NCBI GenBank assembly: GCA_964013425.1
Contig: CAXGWC010000002.1
Span: forward strand, 22,818-86,817
DNA from: an uncultured Candidatus Poseidoniales archaeon
GTDB taxonomy: Archaea > Thermoplasmatota > Poseidoniia > Poseidoniales > Thalassarchaeaceae
DNA: 64,000 nucleotides
Direction: 5' to 3'
Part shown: positions 44,558 through 49,039 of the stretch, in pieces
How the letters are laid out: every line of letters begins with the position of its first letter
Numbering within the stretch: the stretch's first letter is position 1
Made by a program: the position numbers and the translations under genes
The notes under the pieces: model-generated
The model's database searches: none
What the model was told of the DNA's origin: nothing
Seen by the model: the letters and a program-made list of their open reading frames with translations, nothing else

Positions 44558-45598
44558 TCATCCGAAGAGGTCGCCAAGTCCACCGAACCCAGCTTCCTCC
44601 TCTTCCTCCTCTTCCTCGGAAACAGCTTCACTTGCTGTATCCTCTGCCGCTTCTGAGGCCGCGGCACCAACACTCGACGAGACCGTCGCCGCACCGAGTG
44701 CTGCGACAAGCTCTTCGTCAAGAGCTGAGGAATCTAATCGGCTAGCTAAAGCCATAGCGTGCGCGTTGGCGCGGGAAATTATGACGGAAGCCGTCTCATC
44801 ATTGACGACTCCAGCCTCCAAGGCAACGGAAAGAGCCTCGCTACTCGCCTTGGATAATAGTGCAGGCATTGTAGCAATGGAGAACCACTGAACATTGAAT
44901 GCCAGGTTGAATGCACCTGAGGTGGCCTGGATTATGTCATTTCTGAGCCCATCAGTATCAAGATCTAGCTCGGATGAGGAAAGAACCTGACCGTCGTCTA
45001 TAACTCCCATCAGTATGAGGCCAATTTCTATCGGGTTGATTCCTAGTTTGGAAAGCATCAAACCGAGCTCCCCCTCTATTGGATCTCCCTTGTTCACAAC
45101 AGTGACAGTTTTCTGAATGGCAACAGCCCCCTTGTCTATCTTTGCTGGGATTCCAACGGCATTGAACTCACCGACTATAGGGCCAGGACCAAACTCAGTT
45201 GGCCCCGCTTCGACGATTATATCCTCTGGAGCAATCTCTCCTTCCTTGGCTGCTCTACCCTGCCTTGTCTTTTCGAGCTCATCGAATAATTCGTAGCAGT
45301 TGAGCGAGTCAGTATGTACAACACATGGCTGTATCGCTCCTTCGAGCAACGTCTCAAGATTCTCCTCAGATAGTCCGGCCTCTTTCCAAGCCAACCTAAT
45401 CAGGCTCTTCTTGGCCATGGTCATCGTCAGCATACCTCGTAGAGAGCTTCTCATATCTAGCATATTCTTCGCGGGTACTCCTGAGATATCTACCACACCG
45501 ACGATCCCTTCTCTCCCAACTATGTCTTTCAGCTCATCAACACGGTCGGGCTTCCAACCAGCTACTTTGGGAATCAACCAATCACCTCGACCTTGCAT
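44558..45598 (-). CDS. rplP0: 50S ribosomal protein uL10 (P0)
   Basis: P0 fold, tail [18 protein letters not shown]. Start taken at [17 protein letters not shown], which aligns with archaeal P0 N-termini (alternative ATG at 45628). Overlaps the rpl1 3' end by ~25 nt. Confidence 0.85.
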
Positions 45599-46218
45599 GA
45601 TGGGCCCATGGATGTCTTGACGTAGCAAGATCTGATGTTTCCTGTGCCCCTCTCAAGCCTGCTCATGACCCTATTCCAAATCGCCATTGCGTTAAGAGTC
45701 AAGTCATTAAGGCCCTGCTCTCTGGAACCGAGTGCTGCATGGAATGTGATTTTATCTCTAGATCTAACAACTGCAGTATCCTTCAGTCCATTAGCAATCA
45801 TAGCGGGATCGACATTTGGTGGTACAGGCCTCGGCATCTTCCCTCTCGGTCCTAGAACAACCCCAAGGAACCTACCTACTGTACCCATGTGAGGTATCTC
45901 TGACAAGAAAAAGTCGTACTTATTTGCCATTTTCCTAGCCTGCTGACGGTTTCCCCCTATGTCCTCGATAGTCATAGGATCTATGACATCCAACCCCGCG
46001 GCCCTCGCCTTTGCAGACATCTCTCCACCAGCGAACATTGCAATCCTGACAGGTTTACCTCTGCCGGATGGGAGTCTTACCTCTTCTTGAATTCTGTTTG
46101 CTGGATTCTTCAAATCAACATCCTTGAGTGTGAATGAGATTTCTACTGACTCTACGAACTTTCGCTCGGGAGATTCCTCTAAGGCTTGTTGAATAGCGGT
46201 CTGTATATTTTCCTTCAT
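45574..46218 (-). CDS. rpl1: 50S ribosomal protein uL1
   Basis: 214 aa; ...YVKTSMGPS...VEVIG C-terminus and L1 core motifs. Confidence 0.9.
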   Translation of the reverse strand: MKENIQTAIQQALEESPERKFVESVEISFTLKDVDLKNPANRIQEEVRLPSGRGKPVRIAMFAGGEMSAKARAAGLDVIDPMTIEDIGGNRQQARKMANKYDFFLSEIPHMGTVGRFLGVVLGPRGKMPRPVPPNVDPAMIANGLKDTAVVRSRDKITFHAALGSREQGLNDLTLNAMAIWNRVMSRLERGTGNIRSCYVKTSMGPSCKVEVIG

Positions 46219-46272: not shown

Positions 46273-46551
46273 TCAAGCGAAATGCTCGGCAAAATCCCCC
46301 TTGCTCATAGCACTAAGGGCGTCCTTAGGAGACATCCCTTCAATATTTACCCGCATTGAAACACAGGTTCCCATAACCTCTCTGCATCTTGCGTAAAGCG
46401 TTGCACCGGTCAACCTGTCCTTCTGGTCTTCAGCCAGCTTCTTCACCTGTTCCATGGTGAGGTTCTCAGTGGCCTCTTCCCACGATCCATTGCACTTTTT
46501 CTTACCAAGTGATTGGATGATCATGTGAGGAGTCTCATTACGTGCTGACAT
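46273..46551 (-). CDS. rpl11: 50S ribosomal protein uL11, C-terminal (rRNA-binding) domain only; N-terminal domain not encoded in place
   Basis: NLTMEQVKKLAED...REVMGTCVSMRVNIEGMSPKD...DFAEHF aligns with the L11 CTD. Only 79 nt separate it from the spt5 stop, and the frame is closed by TAA at 46648-46650. Confidence 0.7.
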   Translation of the reverse strand: MSARNETPHMIIQSLGKKKCNGSWEEATENLTMEQVKKLAEDQKDRLTGATLYARCREVMGTCVSMRVNIEGMSPKDALSAMSKGDFAEHFA

Positions 46552-46630: not shown

Positions 46631-47530
46631 TCACTCCATTCTCTGTGTTACTCTTACTTGATCGGCCCTGATGTTGAGTGCCACAGGTACAGCTGCTTCG
46701 AATAATTCTACGGTGACCTCTTCCTTTGACTCACTTACTCCAATCACACGAGCCGCGGCGCCCTTGAACGCGCCTCCACGGATTTCAACTATGTTTCCTT
46801 CCTCTATTCCCGATGTTGCCGCCTTTGGCTCTAGATATGGTAGTATGTCCATCAGAGGGGACTCTCCATCCAGAACCTTTCGACAATTCTTCATTGGGGT
46901 AGCCGATACTCCAACCCTTCCTATTAGCTTCTCAACATGATGGATTGCTGTAGCCTCAACAAAAATGAACCCCTTCAGGTAGCTAGGGCTCAGCACTCCG
47001 AAGATCTTGTCTTGTATGTCTTGAAGGGAGCCGGTTCCAGAAAGTCTAGCTCTGATCTCTCTCGCGACATTCTGTTCTTGTCCCATACTAGTTTTGAGGA
47101 TGTAGAGGAAAGATGCGACGTCACCGTACATGTTCCCCAGTTGGGGTACCATGTACCTCGATGATCTGCTTTCGGATGAGTCATCGGGCTCTACCCAGTT
47201 GATGTAACCTGGATCGACCCAGCTGTGATTCTTGTATAGTCCTCTGGAATTAACCTCTTCCGTGTCGCTGAGGAATAGAAGAGGGGTGACATCGTTCAGA
47301 CGGTTTCCGAATTCTAGTCCCCTGGCGTCCCCGGCTCTAATGAACGTCAGACTCTCCGGGGCAATTCCAGTGGTTTCCTCGATTCTGGCGGCAACAACGT
47401 CAAGGTCGTTGGAGTCCCCAACGCCGTAGACACCATCCCATGCTCCAGCGAAGTCTGAGACTTCGTCGGCACGTTGCATCAGTAGAACTTTCTCTGCGTG
47501 GCGGATATAGGCAACAAAAGCATCTGACAA
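46631..47530 (-). CDS. spt5: transcription elongation factor Spt5 (NGN + KOW) with a ~130-aa N-terminal Nudix-fold-like extension
   Basis: Residues ~140-299 show an Spt5 NGN start (ILKTSMGQEQNVAREIRARL) and KOW (GNIVEIRGGAFKG). The in-frame upstream 133 aa carry a degenerate Nudix box GAWDGVYGVGDSNDLDVVAARIEETTGI and run from 14 nt after the secE stop. Confidence 0.7.
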   Translation of the reverse strand: MSDAFVAYIRHAEKVLLMQRADEVSDFAGAWDGVYGVGDSNDLDVVAARIEETTGIAPESLTFIRAGDARGLEFGNRLNDVTPLLFLSDTEEVNSRGLYKNHSWVDPGYINWVEPDDSSESRSSRYMVPQLGNMYGDVASFLYILKTSMGQEQNVAREIRARLSGTGSLQDIQDKIFGVLSPSYLKGFIFVEATAIHHVEKLIGRVGVSATPMKNCRKVLDGESPLMDILPYLEPKAATSGIEEGNIVEIRGGAFKGAAARVIGVSESKEEVTVELFEAAVPVALNIRADQVRVTQRME

Positions 47531-47543
47531 ATCTCATCCCTCC

Positions 47544-47807
47544 TTAGTTAGTTAACCAGCTGAAGAAGTCGGGCAACAAAGTGTCCATACCCCAAAGCAT
47601 CACGAATCCTATTAGTCCGAGTACAAGCATTCCAATTCCACAAACTATCACTGTCTGCCTGAACTCTTGCTTCGAAGGCTTTCTGGCCATCTTCAAGATT
47701 CTGGCATATGATCCAGTTTGAAGGCCCTTGATTCTGCCTTCTATGCCATCCTGCCATCCCTGCACAGTGTCTTCTACCACACCAACATTGGAACTTTCAA
47801 CACCCAT
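47544..47807 (-). CDS. secE: protein translocase subunit SecE (Sec61 gamma)
   Basis: ARKPSKQEFRQTVIVCGIGMLVLGLIGFV; canonical position upstream of spt5. Confidence 0.8.
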   Translation of the reverse strand: MGVESSNVGVVEDTVQGWQDGIEGRIKGLQTGSYARILKMARKPSKQEFRQTVIVCGIGMLVLGLIGFVMLWGMDTLLPDFFSWLTN

Positions 47808-47887: not shown

Positions 47888-49039
47888 CTATCCAATGAAC
47901 TCTACGGTCCTGCTCCTCAGATTCCTCATTTGAGTGTGCAATGCCGCACCATGAATCTGCTCGCTCTTGACTCCTGTGAGAACTAACAGTACTCTAATTC
48001 CATCTCCCATATTCGGGTCCGTTGTAGCTCCCCAAATTATCCTCGCATATGGATTGATTTTATCTCTAATTATTTTCGCACAGGACTCGGCATCCCCTAG
48101 TGAGAGACTTGGTCCTCCCACGACGTTTACCAAAGCACCTCTTGCATCTGAAACATCAATATCCAGCAGCGGAGATTGCAAAGCCTCCTCAGTAGCTGCC
48201 GCTGCCATTCCCTCTCCTCGGGCCTCTCCAAGACCAATCATTGCAACTCCCCCGCCGTTCTCCATAACAGATCGGAGGTCCTGAAAGTCAAGATTGACAA
48301 CCCCTTCCTTCGCAATCATCTCAGAAACTCCCTTGATACTACGCATGAGTAGCTCATCCGCTACTCTGAATGCTGCATCGAGTGGTAACTCTCTAACGCC
48401 CTCAACCTCTAGTAATCTCTCATTCGGAAGAACCACAACGGTGTCACAAACCTCTCTGAGCCTCTCAAGTCCCCACTCGGCATTCTGCCTCCTCAGTGCC
48501 CCTTCGGAAAGGAACGGATAGCTAACCACTGCAATCGTCAAGGCCCCAGCGGCCCGGGCCAGTCTGGCTACTACGTGAGCACTGCCAGTCCCAGTGCCAC
48601 CTCCGAGTCCGGCTGTGATGAAAGCCAGATCACATGCTTCAATCTCTGCTTTCAACGATCTCTCGGACTCGTAGGCGGCCTGCTCTCCTTTTTCGGGATC
48701 TCCTCCAGCGCCCCTGCCTCGCGCTGATCTCCCAATCAGTATCTTGTTTTGAACGGCTACTCGCAACAAGTGCTGCGCATCAGTGTTAACTGCTATGCCT
48801 CTGACGTAGTCGTCGTCGAACAAATCCTCATGCTCTAGTCTTGCTACAGTGTTGGAACCACACCCTCCACAACCGAACACTCTGATCTTTGGTTGTAAAG
48901 ACATCAAAAGGCTCTGTAGCTCCGGATCGCTCTCTGTGTCTATTCGTCCAGTGGGCAATTCGGACTCTTCATCAAGCTCCAGAACTCTGTTGATGAGATG
49001 CTTCACGGAGCCGAGGCGAGTATTACAGAGGATAACCAT
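47888..49039 (-). CDS. ftsZ: cell division GTPase FtsZ
   Basis: Tubulin signature GGGTGTGSAHVVARLAR, T7 loop, GCGGCGSN. Confidence 0.92.
   Translation of the reverse strand: MVILCNTRLGSVKHLINRVLELDEESELPTGRIDTESDPELQSLLMSLQPKIRVFGCGGCGSNTVARLEHEDLFDDDYVRGIAVNTDAQHLLRVAVQNKILIGRSARGRGAGGDPEKGEQAAYESERSLKAEIEACDLAFITAGLGGGTGTGSAHVVARLARAAGALTIAVVSYPFLSEGALRRQNAEWGLERLREVCDTVVVLPNERLLEVEGVRELPLDAAFRVADELLMRSIKGVSEMIAKEGVVNLDFQDLRSVMENGGGVAMIGLGEARGEGMAAAATEEALQSPLLDIDVSDARGALVNVVGGPSLSLGDAESCAKIIRDKINPYARIIWGATTDPNMGDGIRVLLVLTGVKSEQIHGAALHTQMRNLRSRTVEFIG

What the first reader, a model, noticed from the sequence alone, without database searches (positions are those of the whole stretch)
46631..47530. 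Spt5 carries an N-terminal Nudix-fold-like extension
The spt5 reading frame is open for 133 codons upstream of the NGN-domain start and begins 14 nt after the secE stop, so there is no untranslated gap. That extension has the Nudix beta-grasp pattern and a degenerate Nudix box in which the catalytic Glu positions are not preserved. An inactive or divergent Nudix-like module fused to the universally conserved elongation factor is not a standard archaeal architecture. It might bind a nucleotide-derived ligand, or be a regulatory decoy.
Basis: partly seen in the sequence, partly recalled or inferred. Interest (0 to 1): 0.55.

Follow-up and report, generated by a model that had tools for sequence, protein, structure and literature searches.

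The report
Spt5 fused to inactive Nudix domain
In this marine archaeon, and in all the related Marine Group II species examined, the universal transcription elongation factor Spt5 carries an extra N-terminal domain that is a real Nudix-fold module without its catalytic residues, so it most likely binds something rather than hydrolysing it.

Summary
Window 46631..47530 (-) is one 299-codon ORF. It starts at a TTG that sits 7 nt after a GGAGGG and 13 nt after the secE stop. Residues 142-297 are a normal archaeal Spt5 (NGN + KOW).

Residues 1-113 are a Nudix-fold domain:
- A profile of the extension finds true PF00293 proteins at E 1e-10 to 1e-5 among 1.84 billion proteins.
- hhalign against its closest active archaeal relatives gives 99.6% probability.
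- The AlphaFold model (pLDDT 86) matches only Nudix hydrolases in the PDB.

Of the four Glu that are invariant or nearly so in those active relatives, three are replaced in all 87 fusion proteins compared: Arg49, Cys/Ala/Val/Thr53 and Leu/Ile/Met98.

The fusion is not an assembly error. In 79 of 80 Poseidoniales species genomes the two parts share one frame. The N-domain has dN/dS of about 0.08. The internal Met134 is Leu in 16 of 87 sequences. More divergent fusions exist outside the core clade.

I read it as a lineage-specific pseudo-Nudix module that Spt5 carries to RNA polymerase. Its ligand or partner is unknown. I found no publication describing it. Interest is moderate: a new variant of known kinds.

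The parts
47544..47807 (-). secE (87 aa), the gene upstream of spt5. Its stop codon TAA is at 47544-47546.
   Evidence: Pfam SecE PF00584, E 1.7e-6. ORF coordinates.
47538..47543 (-). Shine-Dalgarno-like GGAGGG. It lies 7 nt upstream of the spt5 start and directly after the secE stop.
   Evidence: Read from the sequence. The sample of relatives printed shows GGAGG or GAGGTG-like motifs just upstream of the start.
46631..47530 (-). Whole spt5 ORF of 299 aa with a TTG start: Nudix-like domain, linker, NGN and KOW. The stop codon is at 46631-46633.
   Evidence: Full-length homologues of 288-299 aa, named Spt5 by NCBI, appear.
47192..47530 (-). N-terminal Nudix-fold domain, residues 1-113. It is strongly acidic and lacks the catalytic Glu set.
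   Evidence: AF2 pLDDT 86, pTM 0.79. All top Foldseek PDB hits are Nudix hydrolases. HMMER profile hits to PF00293 proteins. hhalign 99.6%. Net charge -10, pI 4.4.
47363..47425 (-). Degenerate Nudix box, residues 36-56: GVGDSNDLDVVAARIEETTGI. It takes the place of GX5EX7REUXEEXGU.
   Evidence: Alignments, column counts. The Glu of 'RE' is Arg49 in 87/87. The first Glu of 'EE' is Glu52 in 82/87. The second Glu of 'EE' is C/A/V/T at position 53, never acidic. The Glu of GX5E falls in a two-residue deletion.
47108..47191 (-). Linker, residues 114-141. Its first part varies in length and is low-complexity. It ends in the conserved Y-x-x-P-Q-L-x-x-(M/L)-Y-G-D-V-A segment that abuts the first NGN strand.
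   Evidence: Column counts: 42 of 87 sequences have gaps at positions 112-120 and 48 of 87 at 121-122. Tyr135, Gly136 and Val138 are invariant. Position 134 is Met in 71 and Leu in 16. pLDDT is below 50 for residues 114-126.
46640..47107 (-). Canonical Spt5 part, residues 142-297: the NGN domain and one KOW domain.
   Evidence: PF03439 matches 142-204 and PF00467 matches 245-275. TIGR00405 matches 143-297 at E 2.9e-30. Foldseek hits to T. kodakarensis, P. furiosus and M. jannaschii Spt5.
46273..46551 (-). Downstream ribosomal protein L11 gene. It is only 92 aa, the C-terminal RNA-binding domain alone. It is operon context, not part of the fusion.
   Evidence: PF00298 only. The same short ORF occurs across Poseidoniales loci.

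Best explanation
The gene encodes the cell's Spt5 elongation factor with a permanently attached N-terminal pseudo-Nudix domain.

**Shown**
- One ORF with its own ribosome-binding site makes a 299-aa protein. Residues 1-113 adopt the Nudix fold and descend from an archaeal Nudix hydrolase family. Residues 142-297 are a normal NGN-KOW Spt5.
- The Nudix part has lost three of the four Glu that are invariant or nearly so in its closest active relatives. It keeps the fold-defining and other conserved non-catalytic residues: L16, R20, W31, G36, T54, G55, P83, L85, W104.
- It has gained its own invariant residues: D32, R49, R70, Y99, D106.
- It is under strong purifying selection.

**Inferred**
- The domain no longer hydrolyses diphosphates by the canonical mechanism.
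- It acts instead as a binding module for a nucleotide-derived small molecule or for a specific partner.
- Because the NGN domain docks on the RNA polymerase clamp, the module is carried to every elongation complex. There it could tune Spt5 activity or recruit a factor.

**Confidence by step**
- About 0.95 that it is a conserved, translated, non-canonical Nudix-fold domain on Spt5.
- About 0.4 that its role is ligand sensing rather than catalysis or pure scaffolding.
For: **One translated protein**
- Single ORF with GGAGGG and a TTG start 13 nt after secE.
- 76 of 81 loci have ATG at the same position, and the printed sample shows SD-like motifs upstream.
- 79 of 80 species genomes have both parts in frame, with ORFs of 288-301 aa.
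- More than 100 full-length homologues, named Spt5 by NCBI.
- The internal Met134 is Leu in 16 of 87 sequences and has no SD in the printed sample.

**Nudix homology**
- The A1 profile, built from fusion proteins only, retrieves PF00293 proteins at E 1e-10 to 1e-5 from 1.84 billion sequences.
- hhalign of A1 against A4 gives 99.6% probability, E 1.9e-23, over 113 columns.
- 7 of 14 family members hit Pfam NUDIX on their own.
- A profile search of PDB sequences is topped by Nudix enzymes; 3grn scores 4.6e-8.

**Fold**
- The model has pLDDT 86.
- The model made from fusion proteins alone has the same secondary structure.
- Both models hit Nudix hydrolases at probability 1.0, with TM-scores of 0.55-0.77 for the domain-only model.

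**Loss of catalytic residues**
- E61 of the active relatives corresponds to Arg49, 87/87.
- E65 corresponds to C/A/V/T at position 53, 0/87 acidic.
- E110 corresponds to L/I/M at position 98, 0/87 acidic.
- The Glu of GX5E is deleted.
- In the most divergent fusions Glu52 is also lost (Q or S: P0197, P0243, P0245). P0317 has KINRATKI in place of the REUXEEXGU segment.

**Selection**
- Median dN/dS is 0.08, against 0.02 for NGN-KOW.

**Precedent**
- The ligand-sensing Nudix domain of the regulator NrtR is among the structural matches (3gz8).
Against: - No ligand, partner or activity is identified by any result here.
- A cluster of conserved acidic residues remains (D32, D39, D42, D44, E52, D106). 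It could form a non-canonical metal site, so residual or altered catalysis is not excluded.
- The domain is very acidic, with a median net charge of -9. That argues against general RNA or DNA binding. It fits a protein-interaction role at least as well as a small-molecule sensor.
- The relative position of the Nudix and NGN domains could not be modelled. The NGN part of the full-length model has pLDDT below 50.
Confidence: 0.55

Rival explanations
1. The domain is an acidic protein-protein interaction or scaffold module with no small-molecule ligand. It might stabilise the NGN domain in place of, or alongside, Spt4. It might contact RNA polymerase, chromatin proteins or the ribosome. This would resemble the acidic N-terminal region of eukaryotic Spt5.
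For: - The N-domain has a median net charge of -9 and pI 4.4, against -1 and 6.4 for NGN-KOW.
- Some Thalassarchaeaceae add a further 50-75 aa extremely acidic tail in front of it.
- The catalytic Glu set is lost.
- The new invariant surface-type residues D32, R49, R70, Y99 and D106 are not conserved in active relatives.
Against: - The conserved non-catalytic residues shared with active relatives are all kept (R20, W31, G36, T54, G55, P83, L85, W104). That is not required for a mere scaffold.
- The marine archaeal proteome may be acidic in general. This was not measured here.
- No partner is known.
Confidence: 0.25
2. The domain is still an enzyme with a non-canonical active site. It would work co-transcriptionally, for example removing pyrophosphate or a nucleotide cap from the 5' end of nascent RNA (RppH- or NudC-like), or destroying a damaged or regulatory nucleotide next to RNA polymerase.
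For: - RppH, Ap4A hydrolases and NudC are among the best structural matches.
- Several conserved acidic residues remain: D32, D39, D42, D44, E52, D106.
- Tethering to Spt5 would place the domain on the elongation complex. This follows from established knowledge of NGN binding to the RNAP clamp.
Against: - Three of the four Glu conserved in the nearest active relatives are replaced in every one of 87 sequences, one of them by Arg.
- Glu52 is also lost in the divergent fusions.
- The structural matches are equally good to all Nudix subfamilies, so they carry no substrate information.
- The strong negative charge disfavours RNA binding.
Confidence: 0.15
3. The fusion is an artefact, or the two parts are made separately. 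Possible routes are a sequencing or assembly error that joined two genes, or normal Spt5 made from the internal Met134 with the upstream frame untranslated.
For: - Met134 lies 7 residues before the first NGN strand, where canonical Spt5 proteins start.
- One MAG (L081) has the gene split after the NGN domain, and one locus (L024) did not pass the in-frame check.
Against: - 79 of 80 independent species genomes have one frame.
- Hundreds of identical-architecture proteins come from many assemblies.
- dN/dS is 0.08 in the extension.
- The printed sample shows an SD before the first codon and none before Met134, and Met134 is Leu in 16 of 87.
- No stop codon ever separates the Nudix part from NGN. 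The L081 split lies between NGN and KOW, not at the junction.
Confidence: 0.02

Closest known systems
Canonical archaeal Spt5 (TIGR00405; solved chains such as P. furiosus 3P8B_B, M. jannaschii 4ZN3_A, T. kodakarensis 9BCT_G)
   Same: Residues 142-297 match the full Spt5 profile with NGN plus one KOW. The gene order secE-spt5-L11-L1-L10 is the same.
   Different: Canonical proteins are about 147 aa with nothing before the NGN domain. This one has 141 extra N-terminal residues forming a separate folded domain.
Archaeal Nudix hydrolases of the family found either alone (128-140 aa) or fused to an IF-2B / ribose-1,5-bisphosphate-isomerase-like domain (PF00293 + PF01008)
   Same: These are the closest sequence relatives of the N-domain. 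HMMER E-values are 1e-10 to 1e-5 and hhalign gives 99.6%. They share the same length and secondary structure. They also share L16, R20, W31, G36, T54, G55, P83, L85 and W104.
   Different: They have a complete (K/R)E-x-x-EE-x-G box and a fourth conserved Glu. The Spt5 domain has Arg, a small or hydrophobic residue and Leu/Ile at three of those four positions. It also has a two-residue deletion at the GX5E Glu.
NrtR, the Nudix-related transcriptional regulator (PDB 3GZ8)
   Same: A Nudix-fold domain attached to a transcription protein and used to bind a ligand (ADP-ribose) rather than as a housekeeping hydrolase. It is a structural match at probability 1.0, TMq 0.68. That many NrtR proteins have a degenerate Nudix box is from my own knowledge, not tested here.
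   Different: NrtR is a bacterial DNA-binding repressor with a winged-helix domain that acts at promoters. Here the partner is the RNAP-bound elongation factor, and no DNA-binding domain is present. There is no specific sequence relationship beyond the superfamily.
Other non-catalytic Nudix modules: CFIm25/NUDT21 in mRNA 3' processing, the NUDT9-H domain of the TRPM2 channel, TIRR/NUDT16L1 (from my own knowledge, not tested here)
   Same: They follow the same evolutionary pattern: the Nudix fold is kept, the catalytic Glu are lost, and the domain is reused for binding RNA, ADP-ribose or a protein partner.
   Different: All are eukaryotic and unrelated in context. None is fused to Spt5/NusG. 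Their membership in a common subfamily with this domain was not tested and is not claimed.
Acidic N-terminal region of eukaryotic Spt5 (from my own knowledge)
   Same: It is an acidic extension placed N-terminal to the NGN domain of Spt5. The archaeal domain has a net charge of about -9, and some relatives add a 50-75 aa poly-acidic tail.
   Different: The eukaryotic region is intrinsically disordered and not a Nudix fold. There is no homology.

Membership tests
Spt5/NusG (archaeal Spt5, TIGR00405) | NGN domain | tested here: met
   PF03439 at E 1.1e-9, residues 142-204. TIGR00405 at E 2.9e-30, 105 bits against a cut-off of 70.
Spt5/NusG (archaeal Spt5, TIGR00405) | A single C-terminal KOW domain | tested here: met
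   PF00467 matches residues 245-275 at 20.0 bits, just under the Pfam cut-off of 22.3. The region is covered by the full-length TIGR00405 match to residue 297.
Spt5/NusG (archaeal Spt5, TIGR00405) | Conserved position between secE and the L11-L1-L10 ribosomal protein genes | tested here: met
   secE at 47544-47807, L11 at 46273-46551, and the L1-like and L10-like ORFs at 45574-46218 and 44558-45628. The divergent locus L081 has the same secE-spt5-L11-L1 order.
Spt5/NusG (archaeal Spt5, TIGR00405) | Two-domain architecture of about 145-150 aa with no further domain | tested here: not met
   The protein is 299 aa, with 141 residues before the NGN domain. Solved archaeal Spt5 chains are 147 aa.
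Nudix superfamily (PF00293) | Nudix alpha/beta/alpha fold | tested here: met
   AF2 pLDDT 86, pTM 0.79. The top 50 Foldseek PDB hits are all Nudix-fold proteins at probability 1.0, best TMq 0.77. The result holds with a model built from fusion proteins only.
Nudix superfamily (PF00293) | Statistically significant sequence homology to family members | tested here: met
   The profile of the domain hits PF00293 proteins at E down to 1e-10. hhalign E is 1.9e-23. 7 of 14 close homologues hit Pfam NUDIX. The window copy alone gives no Pfam hit.
Nudix superfamily (PF00293) | Nudix box GX5EX7REUXEEXGU with its metal-binding and catalytic Glu residues | tested here: not met
   Only G36, I50, E52, G55 and I56 remain. 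The Glu of RE is Arg49 (87/87). The second Glu of EE is C/A/V/T. The Glu of GX5E is deleted. The downstream Glu conserved in relatives is L/I/M at position 98.
Nudix superfamily (PF00293) | Hydrolysis of a nucleoside diphosphate linked to X | not testable with these tools
   This needs an enzyme assay.
Non-catalytic, ligand-sensing Nudix domains of transcription regulators (NrtR type) | Degenerate Nudix box on a preserved fold | tested here: met
Non-catalytic, ligand-sensing Nudix domains of transcription regulators (NrtR type) | C-terminal winged-helix DNA-binding domain | tested here: not met
   The C-terminal part is NGN-KOW and no HTH family was found.
Non-catalytic, ligand-sensing Nudix domains of transcription regulators (NrtR type) | Binds ADP-ribose or a related NAD metabolite | not testable with these tools
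   This needs a binding assay or a co-structure.

The most novel reading that the evidence does not exclude
The pseudo-Nudix domain is a metabolite or alarmone receptor riding on RNA polymerase. It would bind a nucleotide-derived signal, such as ADP-ribose, a dinucleoside polyphosphate, PRPP or ribose bisphosphate, or a capped RNA 5' end. It would thereby change Spt5's effect on pausing, processivity or transcription-translation coupling genome-wide.

That would give the most abundant planktonic archaea a direct small-molecule input into elongation. It would be an archaeal counterpart of ppGpp acting on bacterial RNA polymerase, built from a different part.
Probability: 0.2. Interest if true: 0.8.

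Novelty: new variant of a known kind. Interest (0 to 1): 0.5.

Why it matters
Spt5/NusG is the only transcription factor conserved in all three domains of life, and archaeal Spt5 is treated as a minimal two-domain protein.

Here a globally abundant order of marine archaea has added a third, folded domain to it. The addition is found in 79 of the 80 species genomes examined and is under strong purifying selection. It derives from a nucleotide-hydrolase family and has been stripped of its catalytic residues.

If the domain binds a metabolite, it would be a new route by which cell state reaches the elongating polymerase in archaea. If it binds a protein, it points to an unknown partner of the archaeal elongation complex.

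Either way the hypothesis is directly testable with recombinant protein, which matters for a lineage that has no cultured representative. Full-text searches of the held paper library found no description of this architecture. Public annotation calls the protein simply 'transcription elongation factor Spt5'.

Tried and rejected
1. **Single-sequence searches of the extension.** Pfam gave nothing. NCBIfam gave only faint NudB/NudG hits at E 0.07-0.13. These are not evidence by themselves and were replaced by profile searches.

2. **phmmer against PDB sequences.** It returned polyubiquitin chains at E 2e-5. This is an artefact of summing four 5.6-bit repeats, each with an individual E-value above 100. 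Rejected.

3. **JGI's label 'isopentenyldiphosphate isomerase' for one homologue (P0034).** IDI is a Nudix-superfamily member but only a mid-rank structural match (rank 32). No specific support.

4. **Sequencing-error or two-gene explanation.** Rejected.

5. **Internal start at Met134.** No SD in the printed sample, and Leu in 16 of 87 sequences.

6. **Full-length AF2 model meant to show domain packing.** The NGN part came out with pLDDT below 50 because the alignment was shallow there. No inter-domain inference was drawn.

8. **Search for Spt4 and for an L11 N-terminal domain in the window by tblastn.** The queries were sequences recalled from memory. Nothing significant was found. This is uninformative about the rest of the genome.

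9. **Taxon of the divergent fusions (P0243, P0245, P0317).** The sources name them only 'archaeon' or 'Thermoplasmatota archaeon', or give no organism at all.

Full report
**1. What is in the sequence**

On the minus strand, 46631..47530 is a single ORF of 299 codons.
- Its first in-frame start is TTG at 47528-47530.
- GGAGGG lies 7 nt upstream, at 47538-47543.
- The TAA stop of the preceding gene lies immediately before that, at 47544-47546.
- The preceding gene is secE (Pfam PF00584).
- Downstream come an L11 gene, then L1-like and L10-like ORFs. The gene therefore sits in the universal secE-spt5/nusG-L11-L1-L10 cluster.

Residues 142-204 match the Spt5 NGN domain and 245-275 a KOW motif. 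NCBIfam's Spt5 equivalog TIGR00405 aligns end to end with residues 143-297 at E 2.9e-30. The first 133-141 residues are extra.

**2. The extension is translated as part of Spt5**

A protein search with the full ORF returned more than 700 relatives. The best 120 are all 266-299 aa and cover the whole query. Where a source gives a name, it is 'transcription elongation factor Spt5' from MAGs labelled Euryarchaeota, Thermoplasmatota or Methanobacteriota.

A scan of one genome per GTDB species found 188 genomes encoding the extension. The 80 best are all Marine Group II, labelled Poseidoniales, Thalassarchaeaceae or Thalassarchaeum. The window is 98% identical in the N-domain to MAG UBA103.

In 79 of these 80 loci the extension and the NGN-KOW part lie in one uninterrupted frame. 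Complete ORFs are 288-301 aa.

The first codon of the extension is ATG in 76 of 81 loci. In the loci printed, GGAGG or GAGGTG-like motifs lie just upstream of it, whereas the internal Met134 has no such motif. Met134 is where a canonical Spt5 would begin. It is Leu in 16 of 87 sequences, so those species cannot make a separate short Spt5.

Nei-Gojobori estimates on 163 unsaturated pairs give a median dN/dS of 0.08 for residues 2-111. The NGN-KOW part gives 0.02. The extension is a protein-coding, selected domain, not an assembly accident.

**3. The extension is a Nudix-fold domain**

Alone, the window copy gives no Pfam hit and only faint NCBIfam hits to NudB and NudG.

I built a profile from 14 fusion proteins only (A1) and ran it exhaustively against 1.84 billion representatives. 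It found, in order of score:
- the Marine Group II fusions;
- more divergent Nudix-Spt5 fusions: P0243 (306 aa, a cluster of 444 sequences named Spt5), P0245 (385 aa) and P0317 (275 aa);
- from E 1e-10 to 1e-5, proteins that Pfam recognises as NUDIX (PF00293). These are stand-alone archaeal proteins of 128-140 aa and fusions to an IF-2B / ribose-1,5-bisphosphate-isomerase-like domain.

Further support:
- hhalign of A1 against an alignment of 16 of those active relatives (A4) gives 99.6% probability, E 1.9e-23, over 113 columns.
- Seven of the 14 A1 members hit Pfam NUDIX on their own, best E 4.5e-6.
- AlphaFold2 on residues 1-126 gives pLDDT 86 and pTM 0.79. Strands span residues 2-11, 14-20, 34-37, 61-66, 70-74, 77-88 and 99-105. 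Helices span 43-54 and 107-112.
- The earlier full-length model, built from fusion proteins only, has nearly identical secondary structure in this region.
- Foldseek against the PDB returns only Nudix-fold proteins for the domain model, at probability 1.0. They include M. mazei MutT-related 3GRN (TMq 0.77), NudI, RppH, Ap4A hydrolases, MTH1, NudC and the NrtR Nudix domain.
- For the full-length model Foldseek returns Nudix proteins plus archaeal Spt5 chains.

**4. The Nudix box is degenerate in a consistent way**

The MAFFT alignment and the hhalign alignment agree on the register. GVGDS--NDLDVVAARIEETTGI aligns to GYVETWETADVTALKEIQEETGL.

In the active relatives four Glu stand out. Three are invariant (E61, E65, E110 in P0265 numbering) and E64 is nearly so. 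In 87 fusion proteins:

| Glu in active relatives | Position in fusion | Residue in fusions |
|---|---|---|
| E61 | 49 | Arg, 87/87 |
| E64 | 52 | Glu 82, Gln 5 |
| E65 | 53 | Cys, Ala, Val or Thr, never acidic |
| E110 | 98 | Leu, Ile or Met |

- The Glu of GX5E falls in a two-residue deletion.
- In the divergent fusions Glu52 is also Gln or Ser. P0317 has KINRATKI in place of the REUXEEXGU segment.
- The non-catalytic conserved residues of the active family are all retained: L16, R20, W31, G36, T54, G55, P83, L85, W104.
- The fusion clade has its own invariant residues: D32, R49, R70, Y99, D106.

This is the usual signature of a pseudo-enzyme that keeps its fold and probably its pocket. Canonical metal-dependent hydrolysis is unlikely. 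It cannot be excluded, because D32, D39, D42, D44, E52 and D106 form a conserved acidic set.

**5. Other properties**

- The domain is strongly acidic, with median net charge -9 and pI 4.4. NGN-KOW has -1 and 6.4. This argues against generic nucleic-acid binding.
- The linker (residues 114-141) varies in length in its first part and was modelled with low confidence there. It ends in a conserved Y-x-x-P-Q-L-x-x-(M/L)-Y-G-D-V-A segment next to the first NGN strand.
- A few Thalassarchaeaceae add a 50-75 aa poly-acidic tail before the Nudix domain.

**6. How it most likely works**

*Shown:* Spt5 of these archaea is a three-domain protein whose first domain is a non-canonical Nudix fold.

*From established knowledge:* the NGN domain binds the clamp coiled-coil of RNA polymerase and closes the cleft during elongation. 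Anything fused to its N-terminus travels with the elongation complex.

*Inferred:* the domain serves as a binding module.
- My preferred reading, about 0.4, is a sensor for a nucleotide-derived ligand that modulates Spt5. NrtR and other inactive Nudix sensors are the precedent.
- The main rival, about 0.25, is an acidic protein-interaction module. It could be a substitute for or partner of Spt4, a contact with chromatin proteins or the ribosome, or an analogue of the eukaryotic Spt5 acidic N-terminus.
- A non-canonical enzyme acting on nascent RNA 5' ends or on nucleotides near the polymerase is possible, about 0.15.
- An artefact or separate translation of the two parts is essentially excluded.

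**7. Comparison with what is known, and novelty**

- The protein is a member of the Spt5 family in every feature except its architecture.
- Its first domain belongs to the Nudix superfamily by fold and homology, but fails the defining Nudix-box test.
- It works like the non-catalytic Nudix modules (NrtR, CFIm25, TRPM2 NUDT9-H) without belonging to any of those families.
- Full-text searches for Spt5/NusG together with Nudix, Poseidoniales or Marine Group II found no description of the fusion. Databases label the protein plainly as Spt5.
- I rate it a new variant of known kinds: a new domain architecture of a universal factor, lineage-wide among the genomes examined in an ecologically dominant group. 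The function is unknown but testable. Interest 0.5.

Noticed in passing
window 46273..46551 (-); also L001-L080 about 70-100 nt downstream of spt5; L081 2869-3150: The ribosomal protein L11 gene encodes only 92 aa, the C-terminal rRNA-binding domain (PF00298). The N-terminal domain that normally contacts translation GTPases is missing, and only 79 nt separate the gene from spt5. The same short ORF beginning 'MSARNETPH' is present in essentially all 80 Poseidoniales loci and in the divergent clade (93 aa). No L11 N-terminal domain was found elsewhere in the 64-kb window. A truncated or split L11 across a whole order would be unusual, and it co-occurs with the Nudix-Spt5 fusion.
   Followed up: partly
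L053, L064, L066, L073 (51-75 open codons upstream of the N-domain); proteins P0015, P0017, P0033: Some Thalassarchaeaceae Spt5 proteins carry a further extremely acidic (D/E-rich) N-terminal tail of about 50-75 residues in front of the Nudix-like domain. It is reminiscent of the acidic N-terminus of eukaryotic Spt5.
   Followed up: partly
proteins P0243 (306 aa), P0245 (385 aa), P0317 (275 aa); locus L081: More divergent Nudix-like-Spt5 fusions exist outside the core Marine Group II set, with 38-42% identity for P0243, P0245 and P0192 and a weaker profile match for P0317. Their Nudix boxes are even more eroded. P0245 also has an N-terminal extension of about 85 aa containing a C-x-x-C ... H-x-x-x-H zinc-finger-like motif. 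P0317 comes from a Lys/Ile-rich lineage. Their taxa could not be determined.
   Followed up: partly
L081 1865-2791: In MAG GCA_027624595.1 the spt5 gene is called as two ORFs, Nudix-NGN (207 aa) and KOW (88 aa). This is probably a frameshift in the assembly. The split is after NGN, not at the Nudix-NGN junction.
   Followed up: no
window 47528-47530: The window copy starts with TTG, whereas 76 of 81 related loci have ATG at the same position. The GGAGGG upstream is retained.
   Followed up: yes
proteins P0261, P0262, P0294, P0305, P0282; P0281, P0306: The closest active relatives of the domain are often fused to an IF-2B / ribose-1,5-bisphosphate-isomerase-like domain (haloarchaeal MAGs among them) or to an aconitase-X swivel domain. 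This hints that the ancestral enzyme acted on a phosphoribosyl compound. A paper in the library mentions a proposed Nudix step from PRPP to ribose-1,5-bisphosphate (PMC7300363).
   Followed up: partly
proteins P0001, P0011, P0015, P0167, P0170, P0042, P0221: Many short database 'homologues' of the N-domain end in junk such as 'LSLIHI' or 'SLIHISEPTRPY', or switch into unrelated proteins (SecE, PF05187). These look like contig-end, adapter or chimeric assemblies and should not be read as stand-alone Nudix genes.
   Followed up: yes
window 47888..49039 (-): A 383-aa FtsZ-like ORF lies directly upstream of secE on the same strand. It was judged by eye from the GGGTGTG motif in the translation and was not scanned against any family library.
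   Followed up: no
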